A DNA stretch of 64,000 nucleotides from Escherichia phage vB_EcoM_KAW1E185: the sequence record NC_054922.1. The stretch is one strand, 5' to 3'. Below the pieces are notes generated by a model that saw only the letters and a list, made by a program, of their open reading frames with translations, ran no database searches and had not been told where the DNA came from. A program made the translations under genes and the position numbers. Shown in pieces: positions 20,374-26,877 of the stretch (its first letter is position 1; the number at the start of each line of letters is the position of its first letter).

Positions 20374-21387
20374 TCATTTATAATAACTTCGGTGGTTTTC
20401 AAGATAGACCTTCTCAAGGAAGTCATCCCAGAAACTCATGTCTACTGTTTTAGGCATACCGTTCTTAGAAGCTTCAGTAGATGCTGCTTCTACTTGATCG
20501 ACCACATCTTCCAAAAACTCTTGAACCGTTTTAAATGGATGTTTACCCAACTTCACGTCGAGAATAAATGGAGCATCTTGGAGTGGATAAACCAAGTCAC
20601 CAGTTTTGTAAATTTCCAATAGTTGGAGTCCACCACGGCAAGCATGACTCAGAGCTTTCCAGTCAATACCTTCATTGGCTTCGGCCTTACGAGCACGTTC
20701 ACCATATTCAGCATCTAATTTGTTCAGTGACTGCTTAAGCTCAATAAGAGAAAGCGTTGTCTGATATTTACGACCCAACACAGTGTAGAACGTTTGTGGG
20801 CCTGTTTTCTCATGATTATGGAACACCCATTCACAGAATTCGTTTTCTGGAAGACGATGCTTAATATCTTCAACTTTAGTGCGACGCTGCTTAATAGAAC
20901 CATCTTCTTGGTAATCAATCCACTGCTCAGGGATTTGATTAACTACTTTCAATACATCACGTAATGCAGCCAAACGAGAACCCTTGACACCGTATTTAGA
21001 AGCTTGCTTGCGGACATATCCTAAATAGGATTTCATGTTAGTCGTATAAAAACGAGAACGGTTGTCTTGAATAAACTTCCACACATCAGGCAAATCAGAT
21101 TTAACCACTAGTTCAGGTGGAGTGTGAAGCATATCCAATGCTACAGTTTCACCATCTGTTGCTAATTTAAAGAAATATTTAAGACTGTATAGTTCATGGT
21201 CAATATCATCTTTAGTGTTTTTAGATGATGTGTTGTTAGTGTTTTTACTCATGTGCTCTTTGACATTTCCGATAAGAATATCACGAGCAGGAGGAACAAA
21301 AATTTCTTTAAAATCTACATCAGATTCTGGAGTAGAAGTTCCATAAAGATGACTACCAAAATAGCTTTTCATTACTGTTTTCATCAT
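20374..21387 (-). CDS. Predicted nucleotidyltransferase (pol-beta superfamily), 337 aa
   Basis: N-terminal YFGSHLYGTSTPESDVDF = G-S-x10-D-x-D signature; ATG overlaps stop of upstream membrane gene. Confidence 0.6.
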   Translation of the reverse strand: MMKTVMKSYFGSHLYGTSTPESDVDFKEIFVPPARDILIGNVKEHMSKNTNNTSSKNTKDDIDHELYSLKYFFKLATDGETVALDMLHTPPELVVKSDLPDVWKFIQDNRSRFYTTNMKSYLGYVRKQASKYGVKGSRLAALRDVLKVVNQIPEQWIDYQEDGSIKQRRTKVEDIKHRLPENEFCEWVFHNHEKTGPQTFYTVLGRKYQTTLSLIELKQSLNKLDAEYGERARKAEANEGIDWKALSHACRGGLQLLEIYKTGDLVYPLQDAPFILDVKLGKHPFKTVQEFLEDVVDQVEAASTEASKNGMPKTVDMSFWDDFLEKVYLENHRSYYK

Positions 21388-21845
21388 TCAGCCTTATATT
21401 CAATAACAGGACATACTTTAGCTTTACGAGCTTTTAAAAATTCAACGATAATCGATTTCTTGGGTTGAATAGGAGGTAAACCTTTATACGCCCTATCAAT
21501 ATTTTCTATGTGTAAAGCATAATCCTTTTTCCATTTATAATCTTTATATTTTTCATGCAAATGTGCAGGAATAACAAATGAACCGATAATAAGTAAAACA
21601 ACCAAAAGCGCAAGTATAAATGCTGATGGAAGAAGAGTCCATAAACTACCAAAAATAAGCCAACGTTGTAGGCTTTCTGCACAAATAATTGTTAGCCCTA
21701 CGAGTATAGCACATCCAAAAATAGAAACGAAAAATGTAGGAATGGCAATAGACCAAAAATATGCGCATAGTGTCTTAGGTCGTTGCCATTCATCGTTAAA
21801 CAATTTGAATAATTTATAGTGCCAAGAGTTTTCATTAATAATCAT
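21384..21845 (-). CDS. Hypothetical membrane protein (153 aa, ~3 TM)
   Basis: Three hydrophobic segments in the translation. Confidence 0.55.
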   Translation of the reverse strand: MIINENSWHYKLFKLFNDEWQRPKTLCAYFWSIAIPTFFVSIFGCAILVGLTIICAESLQRWLIFGSLWTLLPSAFILALLVVLLIIGSFVIPAHLHEKYKDYKWKKDYALHIENIDRAYKGLPPIQPKKSIIVEFLKARKAKVCPVIEYKAE

Positions 21846-21847
21846 AA

Positions 21848-22369
21848 TTATCCTTTCATTGAAGGCGTAACAGTTGTTAAATACTTAATCATAGCTTCAG
21901 CTTCTGATTTTGATAATGAAATTTCTCCATTGTTTTGACGAATAGAAATAAAATCCGGATGACGGTCACCACCAGCTTTTAAAACACACATATAAGTATC
22001 AACTTCATCTTCAATATTTGAAATGATTGAAGCAGTTCCACATGAATGCGGTTTTTGATAAATCAATGCAGCTTTTCTTCCGCCATTTGACTGTTCATAA
22101 ACTTTTAATACATCAAACAAATCACTTCTTTTATCAATAGCTAAAATGTTATTTTCATCTTCAATGTTAAATCCTTCGGATACTTCATAAAGTGTCACCC
22201 ATAAATCGCCAATATCAATAACAGCGTTCACTTTTCCATGACTTTCAAGAGCATGACAAATTTTCTTGATTTCGTCATAACTCATTTTAATAATATCATC
22301 TCCTTGAATAAGAAAGATGTCATTTTTAAATTCAACACGAATTAAACCACTTCCACTTGAAATAAACAT
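21848..22369 (-). CDS. Hypothetical protein (173 aa), paralog of 22376-22921
   Basis: Shared GFNIE(D/S)E and C-terminal YL..V.P.M with the neighbour. Confidence 0.5.
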   Translation of the reverse strand: MFISSGSGLIRVEFKNDIFLIQGDDIIKMSYDEIKKICHALESHGKVNAVIDIGDLWVTLYEVSEGFNIEDENNILAIDKRSDLFDVLKVYEQSNGGRKAALIYQKPHSCGTASIISNIEDEVDTYMCVLKAGGDRHPDFISIRQNNGEISLSKSEAEAMIKYLTTVTPSMKG

Positions 22370-22375
22370 ATTTCC

Positions 22376-22921
22376 TCACTTTGAAATCATAGTTGGAATA
22401 ACAGAATCAAGATAAGTCTTTAGTGCAATAGCTTCGTCTTTGGTAAATGTGACAATATGTGCTCGAAAATCATCAATTTGACGAATAGTTAAGACATCTC
22501 CATCTTCATAACATTTTGATACGTTTAAAACAGTTTCATCATTCTGATTGCAAGCGTTAGTAATAATAGCATTGCAATTTTTAAACCATTTTAAACTATG
22601 TTTTCTTTCATTAGAATAATAAAAATATTTAATCTTATCTATAAAACTATCCCAATGGATAACTGATAAGCATATTGACTCGCTTTCAATATTAAATCCT
22701 GGGCATGAAGAATAAAAATGAATTTTATGCTCATCATTAATGCTTACAATTTTATCAGTATAAGGATTTTCAATTTTGGTTAAATGAATGATTTCACTAG
22801 GCGTAAAATACAGCATATCGTCTTCTTGTGTCAAACGATACATATTATTTACTTTTTCTATAGCTAATTCACCAAAAAGTGAACTAACTTCTAATACTAA
22901 TCGTTTCGCCGCTACCGTCAT
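22376..22921 (-). CDS. Hypothetical protein (181 aa), paralog of 21848-22369
   Basis: See paralog; preceded by a 34-codon leader ORF and an early promoter. Confidence 0.5.
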   Translation of the reverse strand: MTVAAKRLVLEVSSLFGELAIEKVNNMYRLTQEDDMLYFTPSEIIHLTKIENPYTDKIVSINDEHKIHFYSSCPGFNIESESICLSVIHWDSFIDKIKYFYYSNERKHSLKWFKNCNAIITNACNQNDETVLNVSKCYEDGDVLTIRQIDDFRAHIVTFTKDEAIALKTYLDSVIPTMISK

Positions 22922-23053
22922 TACATACTCCTCTGAATCATATCAATAATGTTGTTCACCAGATTATAAGTAAACATTGGGTAATTATATTGAATCATTA
23001 CATACACAACAAACAAAACTTTCATTCTCTTCTCCTTGGCAGTTGACAAGATT

Positions 23054-23082
23054 ACTATACCATAACCTTGCCAACTTGTAAA
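23054..23082 (-). promoter_or_regulatory. Early promoter
   Basis: Minus strand TTTACA - 17 nt - TATAGT. Confidence 0.6.
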
Positions 23083-23248
23083 CCATTAAATGACGTTTTC
23101 AATAAAATTCTGAAGCTTTGTGTGAGCATCAACCATGATTTTCATTTCTTCTTTTGCGAAAGCTGTACCTCTTTCCCGAGCAGAATACTCATAGTCAGAA
23201 ACTGCATTAGCATATTCTTCAATTAGCTTCATTAAAAACATCTGCTTT

Positions 23249-23443
23249 TCAGTTTTCATTATTCCACCTAATCATTTCAAGATATTGAACTAACTTAGCT
23301 TTGGATTTATCCAAATCTCTTTTAGCTGCTTCTATACCGTCGTATGAATATCCTTCACAATGCTCAACTGCTAATTGATATGAATCTATTTCAATATCAC
23401 GTGCTAATTTAATGATTTTTTCAAACTGTTCACGTGTTAGCAT
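23249..23443 (-). CDS. Small helical protein (64 aa), family MxxxEQxxKI
   Basis: MLTREQFEKIIKL; one of four similar small proteins. Confidence 0.45.
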   Translation of the reverse strand: MLTREQFEKIIKLARDIEIDSYQLAVEHCEGYSYDGIEAAKRDLDKSKAKLVQYLEMIRWNNEN

Positions 23444-23445
23444 AA

Positions 23446-23649
23446 TTAAACTCTCGTATTATGATCGATAATTTCATCAAGAAACATATCTAACGCTTCT
23501 AAAGCATTATCAACTTTAGCTTCAAGTTCTTCAATACCTTTATTTGCAATGCCTGACGAAAACCAAGCAAAGTCACTAAATTCCTCATCTGCTTTACGAA
23601 TTAAAGCTACCAGTTCCTTAATTTTATCCGCTTGTTCGATACTAATCAT
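23446..23649 (-). CDS. Small helical protein (67 aa from MISIEQ), same family
   Basis: ATG overlaps stop of upstream ORF. Confidence 0.45.
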   Translation of the reverse strand: MISIEQADKIKELVALIRKADEEFSDFAWFSSGIANKGIEELEAKVDNALEALDMFLDEIIDHNTRV

Positions 23650-23837
23650 TATTCCACCACATATGAAAGAGAGAATATTGCACACGCCATGTGAGTTGCA
23701 ACTTCATCACACATATTATAACGTTTCTTAAGAAGTTCTACAAGTTCTTCACTAGTAACTTCATCCATGTCGACGAAAAAATCACCATTAATGATGACGT
23801 AGATATTTCCTTCTTGATTGAGTGCTTCAATTTTCAT
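23649..23837 (-). CDS. Hypothetical small protein (62 aa from MKIEALNQ)
   Basis: SD AGAGGAGAA upstream of ATG 23837; ORF-track start lies upstream of the promoter. Confidence 0.45.
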
Positions 23838-23865
23838 GATGTTCTCCTCTTTATCCGATAGTTGT

Positions 23866-23894
23866 ATAGTACCACAGCTCAAACGGAAAGTAAA
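23866..23894 (-). promoter_or_regulatory. Early promoter
   Basis: Minus strand TTTACT - 17 nt - TACTAT then ACAACTATC. Confidence 0.6.
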
Positions 23895-23900
23895 CCGGTA

Positions 23901-23927
23901 AAATGAAAAAAGTCTCCCGAAGGAGAC
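23901..23927 (-). terminator. Intrinsic terminator
   Basis: Minus strand GUCUCC-UUCG-GGAGAC followed by UUUUUUCAUUU. Confidence 0.6.
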
Positions 23928-23932
23928 TAATG

Positions 23933-24319
23933 TTATTCGAGGGAAAGAAGATACTTACTCTGGTAAAACATTCCAGTAATATCATCTATCGTACTTTGAA
24001 TGGCTGGAGGCATTTCTTTATAAATGCTGTTAGATTGGTCTAGTATGCGATCAATCATTTTAATTGTGTCGGTAGGAAGTTTACTGGCATCTGGAATTGA
24101 AGGTGTGTATTTTCTACCAGAATACCCCAAATATTGCTCACCAAATTTATCAATCAAATCTGGCAACTCGGAAAAAATAAAATCGTATGCTTTGTGTCTA
24201 GCATAACTTTTAGTTTCAAAATGTGCAGAATGAAAATAAGCTTGTGCAGCCATTAATAAACCTAAGTATTCATCTGCCTTTGAAGGTTTTCCACTTTGTG
24301 AAAAGTCGCTGAATTTCAT
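23933..24319 (-). CDS. Hypothetical protein (128 aa) immediately upstream of rI on the map
   Basis: ORF track. Confidence 0.5.
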
Positions 24320-24610
24320 TCAGTCTCCAATTTAATGTTCATAATTCTAGCGTATGAATGTGCCATCTCCGCGCCTCGTTCTATACATTCAAAATCAGAA
24401 GAGCACGGGTCATTTTTATAGGTCGTTCTCATAAAACTATAGAATTGTTCAGACGATTCTACGCTTTTATTTTCAAAAAGCATATAAACATGTCTAATAC
24501 CAGATTCCATAAATTTATCAAAATGAGGATCGACATTCGCTTCAATCGGTGGAGATAAAGCAAACGCTAATCCTAAGCATGGCAAATAGTGCCGTTGCTT
24601 TTAAGGCCAT
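24316..24610 (-). pseudogene. rI: Lysis-inhibition regulator rI, apparently disrupted by a +1 frameshift after codon 12
   Basis: ATG at 24610 with SD GGAGG encodes MALKATALFAML then stops after 22 codons; other frame continues GLAFALSPPIEANVDPHFDK...NIKLETE, matching T4 RI as recalled. Confidence 0.6.
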
Positions 24611-24622
24611 AAAGGCCTCCTA

Positions 24623-24835
24623 TCATTTTTGTCCTGTATTTACTTTATGCCGATGCACGGCCTTAACTTTATCAAGGTATTTTTCAAAATTTCGCAATCT
24701 AGTATAGTCTGCCGGAGATTGGTTGAGTGATACTTCTCGACGCAAAGCTGAAATGATATTTCCAACTTCCCTACGAATTTCATCTAATTGAAGAACAGTA
24801 AGATTGCGAAGTTGCTTTTCAGTTAATTGTAGCAT
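24623..24835 (-). CDS. Hypothetical protein (70 aa)
   Basis: ORF track. Confidence 0.45.
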
Positions 24836-24877
24836 ATATACCCCTTTAGTTAGATAAACCTATTTATAACTTTTGCA

Positions 24878-25459
24878 CTAACCGAGCTTTTTAGTTAATT
24901 CATTCCAATGTTTTCTGCACAAAGAAACATAAATTTCATCACCAATACAGATTTGATTACCTTCTTTAACTGGTGTTCCATCTTCCATTAATCGAGCTGT
25001 CATAATCGCTTTTTTACCACAATGACAAACTGCCTTTAGTTCAATAAGTTTATCTGCAATCGCTAAAAGTTCTTTAGAACCTTCAAATAATTTTCCAGCG
25101 AAATCAGTCCTTAATCCATAAGCCATAACAGGAACATTATATGTATCAACAATTCGACTCAATTGATGTACTTGTTCAGTTTTTAAAAACTGGGCTTCAT
25201 CTACAAATACGCAATGAATATCTTTTTGTGCTTCAGCCCATTTATAGAACTCGAAAATATCCATATCATCTGTAATAATATTCGCTTCCTGCTTAATTCC
25301 AATGCGAGAAACGACTTCACAGACAGAATCGCGAGTATCAATAGCAGGCTTAAGAACTAATACACTCATTCCACGTTCTTTATAATTATGCGCAGCAGTC
25401 AAAAGAGAAGCAGATTTTCCAGCATTCATTGCTGCATAAGTAAAAATTAAACTCGCCAT
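24878..25459 (-). CDS. tk: Thymidine kinase
   Basis: 193 aa; P-loop NAGKSASLL near N-terminus; C-terminal CxxC pairs. Confidence 0.9.
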   Translation of the reverse strand: MASLIFTYAAMNAGKSASLLTAAHNYKERGMSVLVLKPAIDTRDSVCEVVSRIGIKQEANIITDDMDIFEFYKWAEAQKDIHCVFVDEAQFLKTEQVHQLSRIVDTYNVPVMAYGLRTDFAGKLFEGSKELLAIADKLIELKAVCHCGKKAIMTARLMEDGTPVKEGNQICIGDEIYVSLCRKHWNELTKKLG

Positions 25460-25460
25460 C

Positions 25461-25649
25461 TTAGTCCTTAGTTAAATTTTCTAAATATGTTTCTAAATCA
25501 TTTTCAGCTTTATCGATAGATTTTACTAATTCGTAATATGTTTCGGCATCTCCATATTCAGAAGATATTTCAAAAGACAAATCCTTTTCTAAACTAATAA
25601 TTTCACCAACTAAAAATAATATTTCGTTCTTTTGTTCGCGAGTAATCAT
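25461..25649 (-). CDS. Small helical protein (62 aa), family MxxxEQxxKI
   Basis: MITREQKNEILFL. Confidence 0.45.
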   Translation of the reverse strand: MITREQKNEILFLVGEIISLEKDLSFEISSEYGDAETYYELVKSIDKAENDLETYLENLTKD

Positions 25650-25831
25650 AAGGAATTTATATAATTAATAAGTTCTTGTTCTTTATTATCGAATTCTTTA
25701 GAAAGTTCTTCGTACTCGTTTGCACTAAAAGGACCGCATTCATTACAAACTTTTTCCAATTCGCTATTTTTATCCATAACTTCGTGGATAAGAGAAAAGA
25801 GTTTGTCTTTTTGTTCTTTGCTTAGGCTCAT
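25646..25831 (-). CDS. Small helical protein (61 aa), same family
   Basis: MSLSKEQKDKLFSL. Confidence 0.45.
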   Translation of the reverse strand: MSLSKEQKDKLFSLIHEVMDKNSELEKVCNECGPFSANEYEELSKEFDNKEQELINYINSL

Positions 25832-26001
25832 ATATTAATTTCCAGAAGTTTTAAAATAATTCGCTTTTGCTTAAATATTTCCATAGTTAAATGATCAGTA
25901 TCTTTTTGACCAATTCCAATGGCAAAACCTTTATTAGCAGCGAGTTCAATTAAATTATCAAGTTCACGTAACACTTCGTACTGTAACTCAGAACTATTCA
26001 T
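25828..26001 (-). CDS. Hypothetical small ORF (57 aa), below ORF-track cutoff
   Basis: Own translation MNSSELQYEVLRELDNL...; ATGA overlaps at both ends. Confidence 0.4.
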   Translation of the reverse strand: MNSSELQYEVLRELDNLIELAANKGFAIGIGQKDTDHLTMEIFKQKRIILKLLEINI

Positions 26002-26210
26002 TTCGGTTTACCTTCTTTAACGAAATCTGGATAAGGATAAAATCCCGAATAAAATCCTTCACCTTTATGATTGACGCATCCTTTATTAGAACAATAGCAC
26101 CAATAATCGAAATCACAAGCCATTTCATCGTTGCATAAAGCAAAAACAACCGGCCACTTACACTTTTCACAATGGGCATTTTTAAGAATACTAGTTTGGC
26201 TCATAACCAT
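25998..26210 (-). CDS. Cys-rich small protein (70 aa)
   Basis: Eight Cys including CEKC and CYC. Confidence 0.45.
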   Translation of the reverse strand: MVMSQTSILKNAHCEKCKWPVVFALCNDEMACDFDYWCYCSNKGCVNHKGEGFYSGFYPYPDFVKEGKPK

Positions 26211-26428
26211 GTCACCTTTAAGCAGTATTCTTCTACATGCTGTTTACGACCTTTCTTATCAATAAAGGTATATTCAACGAATGTTCCAATGTAGTCTTTA
26301 TCTACATCATGTGGACTATTAATTGGACATTTAGTACGGCAAATGCGTTCCCATTGACGAATAATTACTGCCTTATTCTTTGGGTCATACGGATGTGGAT
26401 AATGTATATTCATAATAACGGTTCCCAA
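26201..26428 (-). CDS. Hypothetical protein (75 aa)
   Basis: ORF track. Confidence 0.4.
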   Translation of the reverse strand: MGTVIMNIHYPHPYDPKNKAVIIRQWERICRTKCPINSPHDVDKDYIGTFVEYTFIDKKGRKQHVEEYCLKVTWL

Positions 26429-26877
26429 TCAACAATCACAATTTCTAATTTAGAGGAATATGTATCTAAAATCCCCTCAATAATATCCCAGTTCCCTTTA
26501 CCTATGCCTGCACCAATCCTAGGCATATAGATTGTAGGTTTAATCAGTTTATTTTCACCAAACTCATTTAATTCTAACATACAATTCATTAAAGCGGAAT
26601 ACTCAAAATTTGGCCCCGGTTGAAATTGAGTATAAAGATTGAAGCAGTAAGCTTTATGAGTCCTAAAGTATTTTTCATAGACTGAGTAAGAACCGAGTTT
26701 AGTTACATCGCCCCATTCTGTCTGTAATTTATCAGCTTCCAAAATCTTAGGAAAAGCTTTAGCTAATTGACCAGCTACTCCTGATCCCATCGTGTGGAAA
26801 CAGTTACAGCCATGAGCGATATTTTTACCTTCAGCGAAAAGGGCGACAATATCGCCCTTGATATATTTTACAATCAT
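26410..26877 (-). CDS. Macro-domain-like protein (putative ADP-ribose binding/processing), 155 aa
   Basis: KGDIVALFAEGKNIAHGCNCFHTMGSGVAGQLAKAFP and PRIGAGIGKG resemble macro-domain motifs; not verified by profile search. Confidence 0.5.
   Translation of the reverse strand: MIVKYIKGDIVALFAEGKNIAHGCNCFHTMGSGVAGQLAKAFPKILEADKLQTEWGDVTKLGSYSVYEKYFRTHKAYCFNLYTQFQPGPNFEYSALMNCMLELNEFGENKLIKPTIYMPRIGAGIGKGNWDIIEGILDTYSSKLEIVIVDWEPLL

What the first reader, a model, noticed from the sequence alone, without database searches (positions are those of the whole stretch)
23249..25831. Family of four ~62-aa helical proteins in two tandem pairs flanking rI and tk
23249-23443 (MLTREQFEKIIKL), 23446-23649 ([13 protein letters not shown]), 25461-25649 (MITREQKNEILFL) and 25646-25831 (MSLSKEQKDKLFSL) share an N-terminal M-x-x-x-EQ-x-x-K-(I/L) pattern and acidic helical bodies ending near YL(E). 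Small duplicated acidic proteins in early phage regions are frequently inhibitors of host proteins.
Basis: seen in the sequence. Interest (0 to 1): 0.4.

Follow-up and report, generated by a model that had tools for sequence, protein, structure and literature searches.

The report
Known T4 small helical-hairpin protein family
The four small proteins are real relatives of one another, but they are the long-known T4 genes tk.2, tk.1, mobD.4 and mobD.3 (plus a fifth copy, mobD.2a), which belong to an already catalogued phage protein family whose function is still unknown.

Summary
The window is a T4-like phage (Tequatrovirus). The four ORFs are T4 mobD.3, mobD.4, tk.1 and tk.2. All four match Pfam DUF7438 (PF24219) at 55-69 bits, against a cutoff of 25. 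So does a fifth adjacent ORF, mobD.2a (23086-23259).

My own tests agree: profiles built from each ortholog group match each other, each protein matches a profile built without its own group, and neighbouring small genes used as negative controls do not match.

AlphaFold2 predicts a two-helix antiparallel hairpin (pLDDT 91-94). The family is uniformly acidic. It is small (29 representatives among 1.84 billion proteins) and nearly confined to T-even-like coliphages. It occupies two conserved sites, upstream of tk and downstream of rI.-1/mobD.5, with 1-4 copies per site.

The genes are under purifying selection (dN/dS 0.09-0.34). The mobD set lies behind a T4 early-promoter consensus. A published transposon screen classes all five as non-essential in T4.

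No function is known. The database labels "MobD molybdopterin...", "helicase loader" and "KilA" have no support here.

The reading I favour is a set of non-enzymatic, accessory binding proteins, possibly dimerising like Rop, that modulate host or defence proteins. This is inference only. The existence of the family is not new, and interest is low to moderate.

The parts
25646..25831 (-). Tk.2 (61 aa), DUF7438 member. Its stop overlaps the Tk.1 start (ATGA).
   Evidence: Pfam PF24219 at 69.2 bits. 97% identical to T4 Tk.2. AF2 model is a hairpin, H5-30/H37-60, pLDDT 91.5.
25461..25649 (-). Tk.1 (62 aa), DUF7438 member. It ends 1 nt before the tk start.
   Evidence: Pfam 55.6 bits. 100% identical to T4 Tk.1. 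It is the best-connected member in the profile-profile comparisons. Found in only 193 phage records.
23446..23649 (-). MobD.4 (67 aa), DUF7438 member and the most variable of the mobD set.
   Evidence: Pfam 55.8 bits. 78% identical to T4 MobD.4. dS 0.37 against 0.03-0.10 in flanking genes; dN/dS 0.17.
23249..23443 (-). MobD.3 (64 aa), DUF7438 member.
   Evidence: Pfam 63.3 bits. 98% identical to T4 MobD.3. dN/dS 0.09.
23086..23259 (-). It overlaps the end of MobD.3 by 11 nt. The T4 reference carries a truncated 38-aa form.
   Evidence: Pfam 59.8 bits. phrog_2758. Its group matches the rest of the family at hhalign 93.6%, E 2e-7. AF2 model is a hairpin, H4-29/H32-56, pLDDT 94.4. T4 form is P0031.
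23911..23928 (-). Terminator-like stem-loop (AGTCTCC-TTCG-GGAGACT followed by a T run) after rI.-1. It marks the upstream boundary of the mobD.5-mobD.2a unit.
   Evidence: Terminator scan. The same element is annotated as a rho-independent terminator in phage ASO78A.
23866..23895 (-). T4 early-promoter-like sequence, GTTTAC-N14-GTGGTACTAT, directly after the stem-loop and upstream of mobD.5.
   Evidence: Read from the sequence. The homologous site in ASO78A is annotated as similar to the T4 early promoter consensus. This terminator-plus-early-promoter arrangement resembles the PeSL elements described in PMC4122927.
23054..23082 (-). A second early-promoter-like site (TTTACA-17-TATAGT with TG) just after mobD.2a. 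It marks the downstream boundary of the unit.
   Evidence: Best promoter-like match in the region, 10 of 12 positions. Sequence GGTTTACAAGTTGGCAAGGTTATGGTATAGT.

Best explanation
**Shown.**
- The window carries five paralogous genes of the curated family DUF7438 / PHROG 653. These are the T4 genes tk.2, tk.1, mobD.4, mobD.3 and mobD.2a.
- Each encodes a 57-67 aa cytoplasmic, acidic protein predicted to be a single antiparallel two-helix hairpin.
- The hydrophobic residues follow a heptad a/d pattern, with small alanines at the centre. There is an extra hydrophobic cluster at the open end of the hairpin.
- That open end also holds the two conserved motifs: N-terminal M-[IL]-[TS]-x-E-Q and C-terminal L-x-x-[YF]-[LI]-x-x-[LI].
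- The genes are tightly packed in multi-gene units.
- They are conserved by purifying selection, dispensable in the laboratory, and vary in copy number and allele between closely related phages.

**Inferred.** The proteins are too small and featureless for catalysis, so they probably act by binding. The most likely model has three steps:
1. They bury the exposed hydrophobic face at the hairpin's open end either by pairing (homo- or heterodimers forming Rop-like four-helix bundles) or on a target.
2. They act early in infection as accessory modulators or inhibitors of host or host-defence proteins.
3. The paralogs provide different or redundant specificities.

I put family identity at about 0.97. 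I put the 'binding modulator of host/defence proteins' mechanism at about 0.4. The confidence value given for this explanation (0.45) reflects the mechanism, which is the uncertain part.
For: **Family and paralogy**
- Pfam and PHROG matches.
- Profile-profile comparison between ortholog groups.
- Leave-one-group-out scores against shuffles.
- Neighbouring small genes fail as negative controls.

**Fold**
- Two AF2 models, pLDDT 91.5 and 94.4, both helix-loop-helix.

**Heptad pattern, conserved termini, acidity**
- Column statistics, and pI 4.05-5.31 over 33 members.

**Real genes under constraint**
- dN/dS 0.09-0.34 across 11 Tequatrovirus loci.

**Accessory and plastic**
- HIDEN-SEQ classes all five as non-essential in T4 (10.1101/2025.11.20.689424, supplementary files).
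- A viable T4 deletion spans nrdC.11 to mobD.3 (PMC9825161).
- Copy number is 1-3 upstream of tk and 2-4 after rI.-1/mobD.5 in different genera.
- Tk.1 occurs in 193 records against 806 for Tk.2.
- Tk.2 and MobD.4 have dS of 0.72 and 0.37, while flanking genes have 0.03-0.10. This indicates exchange of old alleles by recombination.

**Early expression (inferred from sequence)**
- The mobD.5-mobD.2a unit has a terminator and a T4 early-promoter consensus at its upstream end, and a second early-promoter-like site just after mobD.2a.

**Neighbourhood**
- Tk.4, a few genes upstream, is reported as the anti-DarTG2 factor AdfM.
- Related loci also carry an Acb2/Tad1-type gene.
Against: - No direct evidence exists for any partner, for oligomerisation or for any phenotype.
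- Gene-wide dN/dS shows no positive selection, which an arms-race inhibitor might be expected to show. Site-wise tests were not run.
- The HIDEN-SEQ main text names none of the five genes. In the one conditional comparison visible to me, they had log2 changes of -0.13 to -0.5 with adjusted p = 1.
- RB3-type phages carry a single gene at the tk site, so an obligate Tk.2/Tk.1 heterodimer is unlikely.
- A helical hairpin is a generic fold, so the similarity to Rop says nothing about function. There is no sequence relationship to Rop (0.06% probability).
- The neighbourhood argument is weak: T4 early regions mix many unrelated functions.
Confidence: 0.45

Rival explanations
1. Rop-like nucleic-acid binders. 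The hairpins dimerise into four-helix bundles that bind structured RNA (phage or host transcripts, sRNA pairs) and tune early gene expression.
Against: There is no sequence similarity to Rop (hhalign 0.06%; no PDB sequence hit). The family is strongly acidic (median net charge -6.5) and has no conserved basic patch. The only widely conserved polar residues are E and Q at the N-terminus.
Confidence: 0.1
2. Small structural adaptors or chaperones for phage complexes, for example nucleotide-metabolism or lysis-timing machinery encoded next to them (tk, rI). On this reading they do not act on the host.
For: The position next to tk and rI.-1/mobD.5 is conserved in Tequatrovirus, Mosigvirus, Gaprivervirus and other T-even-like genomes. 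The genes are closely packed or overlap, consistent with translational coupling to neighbours, including Tk.1 to tk.
Against: The genes are dispensable. Their copy number varies while tk and rI stay almost identical. A member occurs in the podovirus SU10 (Kuravirus), where none of the 11 genes annotated within 4 kb of it is tk or rI.
Confidence: 0.1
3. Evolutionary filler: easily formed helical ORFs that persist by linkage in a hyperplastic region and have no function of their own.
For: There is no known phenotype, the genes are non-essential, they are lost and gained often, and the fold is very simple.
Against: Selection is purifying (dN/dS 0.09-0.34), with many synonymous changes tolerated. 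Conserved motifs and reading frames persist across genera at 20-30% identity. Two conserved genomic sites are occupied in every T-even-like genome examined.
Confidence: 0.05
4. The functions given in database labels are correct: MobD.4 as 'molybdopterin-guanine dinucleotide biosynthesis protein MobD', MobD.4 as 'helicase loader', and the sixth copy in T6 as 'KilA anti-repressor'.
For: These names appear in RefSeq and other records. phrog_4859 ('helicase loader') gives weak matches at E 5.5e-5 to 0.03.
Against: The 'MobD' name appears to come from the T4 positional gene name: mobD itself is a homing endonuclease, and mobD.4 is simply the fourth ORF after it. No Pfam or NCBIfam molybdopterin, helicase-loader or KilA model matches. 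No solved helicase loader is hit by sequence. A 60-aa hairpin cannot hold those domains.
Confidence: 0.02

Closest known systems
Pfam DUF7438 (PF24219) / PHROG 653 (also phrog_2758 and phrog_4859): T4 Tk.1, Tk.2, MobD.3, MobD.4, MobD.2a
   Same: All five window proteins match the model full length, far above the curated threshold. They are 78-100% identical to the T4 proteins and sit in the same genomic positions; the MobD.2a comparison (84%) covers only the 38 aa present in T4.
   Different: Nothing essential. This phage carries the full-length 57-aa MobD.2a, which is truncated to 38 aa in the T4 reference. Its MobD.4 allele is 67 aa, against 60 aa in T4.
ColE1 Rop (Rom), a 63-aa helical hairpin that forms a homodimeric four-helix bundle
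   Different: No detectable sequence relationship. Dimerisation and RNA binding are untested for DUF7438. The conserved residues lie at the hairpin termini, not along a helix-1 face.
Small acidic phage inhibitors of host or defence proteins (for example T4 Arn, T7 Ocr, T4 AsiA, anti-CRISPR proteins)
   Same: Small, acidic, non-enzymatic, dispensable in the laboratory and variable between related phages. Early expression is inferred from promoter consensus sequences.
   Different: No homology to any of them. No known target. No sign of gene-wide positive selection.

Membership tests
Pfam DUF7438 (PF24219) | Whole-protein score above the curated gathering threshold (25 bits) | tested here: met
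   Scores are 63.3, 55.8, 55.6, 69.2 and 59.8 bits for MobD.3, MobD.4, Tk.1, Tk.2 and MobD.2a.
Pfam DUF7438 (PF24219) | Match covers the whole 57-position model as a single domain in a roughly 60-aa protein | tested here: met
   Model positions 1-57 (1-56 for MobD.2a) are aligned in each. All 69 homologs are 33-78 aa, and every one that carries a precomputed Pfam hit carries PF24219, with one 79-aa exception noted.
Pfam DUF7438 (PF24219) | Relatedness holds independently of the curated model, which may contain these same T4 sequences | tested here: met
   hhalign between ortholog-group profiles gives 76-96% for most pairs; Tk.2-MobD.4 links only through Tk.1. MobD.2a group against the rest gives 93.6%. 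Leave-one-group-out scores are 39-44 bits against 14 or less for shuffles.
PHROG 653 | Best PHROG match at a significant E-value | tested here: met
   E is 2.5e-25 to 4.1e-22 for the four listed ORFs. MobD.2a falls in the sister group phrog_2758 at E 3e-35.
Rop/Rom family | Sequence homology to Rop | tested here: not met
   hhalign probability 0.06%. Rop is absent from the PDB sequence hits.
Rop/Rom family | Helical hairpin fold of about 60 residues | tested here: met
Rop/Rom family | Homodimeric four-helix bundle that binds RNA kissing complexes | not testable with these tools
   Only single-chain prediction was available.
Helicase loader (label of phrog_4859) | Homology to a characterised helicase loader | tested here: not met
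   Only weak matches to the 61-position phrog_4859 profile itself (E 5.5e-5 to 0.03). No Pfam, NCBIfam or PDB helicase-loader hit.
MobA/MobB-type molybdopterin-guanine dinucleotide biosynthesis (RefSeq label 'MobD') | Match to a molybdenum-cofactor biosynthesis domain | tested here: not met
   No such Pfam or NCBIfam match. The label appears to come from the T4 positional gene name.
Known anti-phage defence proteins (PADLOC) | Significant match to a defence-system model | tested here: not met
   Best E-values are 0.01-0.05 at 11-13 bits.

The most novel reading that the evidence does not exclude
The five to six paralogs form a combinatorial set of homo- and heterodimeric four-helix bundles. 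The conserved open end of the hairpin mediates pairing. The variable loops and surfaces recognise different host immune or stress proteins. On this reading the family is a diversified, partly redundant phage repertoire of decoys or inhibitors, and the redundancy hides its phenotype in single-gene knockout screens.
Probability: 0.12. Interest if true: 0.6.

Novelty: already known. Interest (0 to 1): 0.25.

Why it matters
The family is one of many uncharacterised small early-gene families in the best-studied virulent phage. It is present in several copies in at least 800 sequenced phage genomes, conserved by selection, and still has no assigned role.

If the paralogs turn out to be host- or defence-directed binding proteins, they would add a new small scaffold to the counter-defence toolbox. 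They would also show why single-gene screens miss redundant paralogs.

As it stands, the result mainly tidies annotation. It links five T4 genes as one family and shows that three circulating functional labels have no support. It gives no new biology.

Tried and rejected
1. **Sequence search of solved structures** with the family profile. Nothing below E 0.045, and the hits are coiled-coil noise.
3. **NCBIfam and PADLOC scans.** Nothing significant.
4. **More members in the window.** A family HMM run over all six-frame segments found only the five. orf57 (25828-26001), rI.1, mobD.5, tk.3 and mobD.2 are not members.
5. **Diversifying selection.** Gene-wide dN/dS is below 0.35 for all members. 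The high divergence of Tk.2 and MobD.4 comes with high dS, so it reflects exchange of old alleles rather than fast protein evolution.
6. **Apparent Tk.2(N-terminal)-Tk.1(C-terminal) chimeras** (P0007 from UFV-AREG1, P0009). I first read these as natural recombinants. The current UFV-AREG1 record has separate intact tk.2 and tk.1 genes, so P0007 most likely comes from an older sequence version. I do not use the chimeras as evidence.
7. **Domain fusions.** None found. All homologs are single-domain proteins of 33-78 aa. The one 3977-aa hit (P0016) looks like a repetitive coiled-coil match; I did not inspect its sequence.
8. **Literature.** Searches for DUF7438 and for the gene names found no functional study.
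9. **The search for related loci in viral contigs** returned only two near-identical loci.
Full report
**1. What is there**

The window is a Tequatrovirus (T4-like) genome segment. Region 23000-26100 is 98-98.7% identical to phages such as 303Ecol101PP, RB18 and T6, and matches 549 phage records.

Mapping onto the T4 reference and per-gene comparison identify the four ORFs, all on the minus strand:
- 23249-23443 is mobD.3.
- 23446-23649 is mobD.4.
- 25461-25649 is tk.1.
- 25646-25831 is tk.2.

Tk.1 and Tk.2 correspond to 'ORF 59.7' and 'ORF 59.9' in the T4 early-region GenBank record X04567.

The gene order in the direction of transcription is:
vs.1, vs, tk.4, tk.3, a zinc-binding ORF, orf57, tk.2, tk.1, tk, rI.1, rI, rI.-1, mobD.5, mobD.4, mobD.3, mobD.2a, mobD.2, mobD.1.

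**2. Is the similarity real?**

Pairwise BLASTP identity is only 22-32% with weak E-values. Profiles settle the question.
- All four ORFs match Pfam DUF7438 (PF24219) over its whole length at 55.6-69.2 bits, against a cutoff of 25. They also match phrog_653 at E of about 1e-22 to 1e-25.
- The curated models may contain the T4 sequences themselves, so I repeated the test independently.
  - Separate profiles for each ortholog group link Tk.1 to Tk.2 (95.9%), MobD.4 (94.9%) and MobD.3 (94.9%).
  - Tk.2-MobD.3 and MobD.4-MobD.3 reach about 76%.
  - Tk.2-MobD.4 link only through Tk.1.
- With its own ortholog group left out of the profile, each protein scores 39-44 bits. The best of 2000 composition-matched shuffles scores 14 bits or less.
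- The N-terminal motif occurs four times in the six-frame translation, against 0.13 expected.
- Five neighbouring small genes serve as negative controls. None exceeds 1.7% hhalign probability.

**3. A fifth member**

The ORF at 23086-23259 is mobD.2a (57 aa here, truncated to 38 aa in the T4 reference).
- It matches DUF7438 at 59.8 bits.
- Its ortholog group matches the rest of the family at 93.6%, E 2e-7.

The layout is therefore a pair (tk.2-tk.1) plus a triplet (mobD.4-mobD.3-mobD.2a). A family HMM finds no further member anywhere in the 64-kb window.

**4. Anatomy of the proteins**

- AlphaFold2 predicts a single antiparallel helical hairpin for Tk.2 (H5-30, H37-60; pLDDT 91.5) and for MobD.2a (H4-29, H32-56; pLDDT 94.4).
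- Column statistics on 23 diverse members show:
  - a heptad a/d hydrophobic pattern in both helices;
  - alanine preferred at the two central positions;
  - additional hydrophobic positions near the chain termini.
- The best-conserved residues are E6 and Q7 at the start of helix 1, L14 in helix 1, and L54, Y/F57 and L/I58 at the end of helix 2. The helix-1 start and the helix-2 end should lie next to each other at the open end of the hairpin.
- The loop varies in sequence and length.
- All members are acidic, with pI 4.05-5.31 and median net charge -6.5.

**5. Distribution and evolution**

*Family size.* An exhaustive HMMER search of 1.84 billion cluster representatives finds only 29 at E of 0.001 or less. 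Apart from a few shorter or frameshifted variants (38-76 aa) and one 3977-aa hit, they are about 60 aa. A profile search of 5.8 billion proteins finds 69 clusters. The named ones are all from Escherichia or Shigella phages, or carry host-species labels, and many sit on contigs of 165-173 kb.

*Outside the T-even group.* A member resembling Tk.2 occurs in the podovirus SU10, a Kuravirus.

*Two conserved sites.* One lies between tk.4 and tk, the other after rI.-1/mobD.5. They are occupied in Tequatrovirus, Mosigvirus, Gaprivervirus and in further T-even-like genomes and contigs (MT446420, L005). Copy numbers are 1-3 and 2-4. T6 and RB3 have a sixth copy between mobD.2 and mobD.1.

*Prevalence in the phage collection:*

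| Protein | Records with a match |
|---|---|
| Tk.2 | 806 |
| MobD.2a | 642 |
| MobD.3 | 587 |
| MobD.4 | 503 |
| Tk.1 | 193 |

*Tk.2/Tk.1 linkage.* The number of records with a T4-type Tk.2 (at least 80% identity) is 167. The number with a Tk.1 of at least 80% identity is also 167. This fits the pair travelling together as one haplotype, with RB3-type phages carrying a single divergent Tk.2. It is only a comparison of counts; I did not check it record by record.

*Selection.* Across 11 Tequatrovirus loci the results are:

| Gene | dN/dS | dS |
|---|---|---|
| Tk.1 | 0.34 | 0.03 |
| Tk.2 | 0.26 | 0.72 |
| MobD.4 | 0.17 | 0.37 |
| MobD.2a | 0.10 | 0.15 |
| MobD.3 | 0.09 | 0.09 |

Flanking genes tk, rI.1 and rI.-1 have dS of 0.03-0.10. 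The proteins are therefore under purifying selection. The divergent alleles of Tk.2 and MobD.4 are old and moved in by recombination. This is typical of T4 hyperplastic regions, where terminator-plus-early-promoter elements (PeSLs) have been proposed to mediate such swaps (PMC4122927).

**6. Expression context**

- mobD.5-mobD.4-mobD.3-mobD.2a looks like a compact early unit.
  - A terminator-like stem-loop lies at 23911-23928.
  - It is followed by GTTTAC-N14-GTGGTACTAT at 23866-23895.
  - A second early-promoter-like site lies right after mobD.2a, at 23054-23082.
- The homologous elements are annotated as terminator and T4 early promoter in phage ASO78A.
- Gene boundaries overlap or are 1-2 nt apart. 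This is consistent with translational coupling.
- Early expression is inferred from these sequences. It was not measured here.

**7. What is known about function**

Nothing direct.
- The literature library has no paper on DUF7438 and no functional study naming these genes.
- The HIDEN-SEQ preprint classes all five as non-essential in T4. It reports no conditional hit for them in its main text.
- A viable T4 deletion spans nrdC.11 to mobD.3.
- The same preprint identifies the nearby tk.4 as the anti-DarTG2 factor AdfM.
- NCBIfam and PADLOC give nothing.
- The labels 'molybdopterin-guanine dinucleotide biosynthesis protein MobD', 'helicase loader' and 'KilA anti-repressor' attached to family members in databases have no support in any domain search.

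**8. Most likely mechanism (inference)**

A 60-residue acidic hairpin with no catalytic or metal-binding features can act only by binding. Hydrophobic residues beyond those needed to pack two helices cluster at the conserved open end. This suggests that this end is buried either in a dimer (a Rop-like four-helix bundle) or on a partner.

Set alongside an early-promoter consensus, dispensability, copy-number plasticity and a neighbourhood that includes counter-defence genes, the best guess is that these are accessory modulators or inhibitors of host or defence proteins, with paralogs giving redundancy or different specificities. I put this at about 0.4.

The rivals, with my estimates:
- RNA binding in the manner of Rop: 0.1.
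- Adaptor or chaperone for phage complexes: 0.1.
- Functionless filler: 0.05, contradicted by purifying selection.
- The database labels: 0.02.

**9. Verdict**

- Its functional idea is reasonable but untested.
- The family's existence and its paralogy are already captured by Pfam and PHROGs, and the genes are named T4 genes. Novelty is 'already known'.
- Interest is low to moderate. It rests only on the open question of what this conserved multi-copy family does.

Noticed in passing
window 24542-24610 (-), extra base near 24575-24576: The lysis-inhibition gene rI carries a 1-nt insertion (GCTTAGG where T4 and T6 have GCTAGG) at about codon 12-13. The ORF starting at ATG 24610 therefore stops after 22 codons, and the rest of rI is readable only from an internal TTG (24316-24585). 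None of 500 matching phage records has this insertion; the best are 98.8% with a 1-base gap. It is either a private rI (rapid-lysis) mutation or a sequencing error.
   Followed up: partly
window 25828-26210 (-): Two genes lie between tk.3 and tk.2 that the T4 reference lacks: a 70-aa 'Phage zinc binding domain' protein (PF23895, 25998-26210) and a 57-aa protein of phrog_3452 (25828-26001). Both are present in T6 and RB3.
   Followed up: partly
window 26410-26877 (-): tk.4 (155 aa; a macro-domain protein in related records) is the ortholog of the T4 gene recently named adfM, an anti-DarTG2 factor (preprint 10.1101/2025.11.20.689424). RB3-type phages carry an allele only 59% identical, swapped together with a divergent tk.2.
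   Followed up: partly
window 21384-22921 (-): The genes named mobD.1 to mobD.5 are present, but the mobD homing endonuclease itself does not follow mobD.1 here as it does in T4. Instead there are a 173-aa ORF and a 153-aa ORF, then a 337-aa ORF at the position where related phages annotate nrdC.11. Several other Tequatroviruses have the same arrangement.
   Followed up: no
L001 1237-1422 (T6) and L013 6721-6906 (RB3_102): T6 and RB3 carry a sixth DUF7438 copy between mobD.2 and mobD.1, which this window lacks. In the T6 record it is labelled 'kilA anti-repressor protein', which no search supports.
   Followed up: partly
L015 3998-4159 (Kuravirus SU10, SU10_025): A 53-aa DUF7438 member about 38% identical to the family consensus (Tk.2-like sequence) sits at the end of an operon in a podovirus unrelated to T4. 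This suggests horizontal transfer of the family between coliphage groups.
   Followed up: partly
RefSeq and other records of T4-like phages (e.g. NC_000866 mobD.4; P0052, P0086, P0020): MobD.4 orthologs are widely annotated as 'molybdopterin-guanine dinucleotide biosynthesis protein MobD', apparently by confusion with the T4 positional gene name. Some pipelines call them 'helicase loader' via phrog_4859.
   Followed up: yes
P0007 (UniRef, UFV-AREG1) and P0009 (ENA contig): These proteins look like fusions of the Tk.2 N-terminal helix to the Tk.1 C-terminal helix. The current UFV-AREG1 genome version has two separate intact genes, so at least P0007 probably reflects an older sequence version.
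   Followed up: partly
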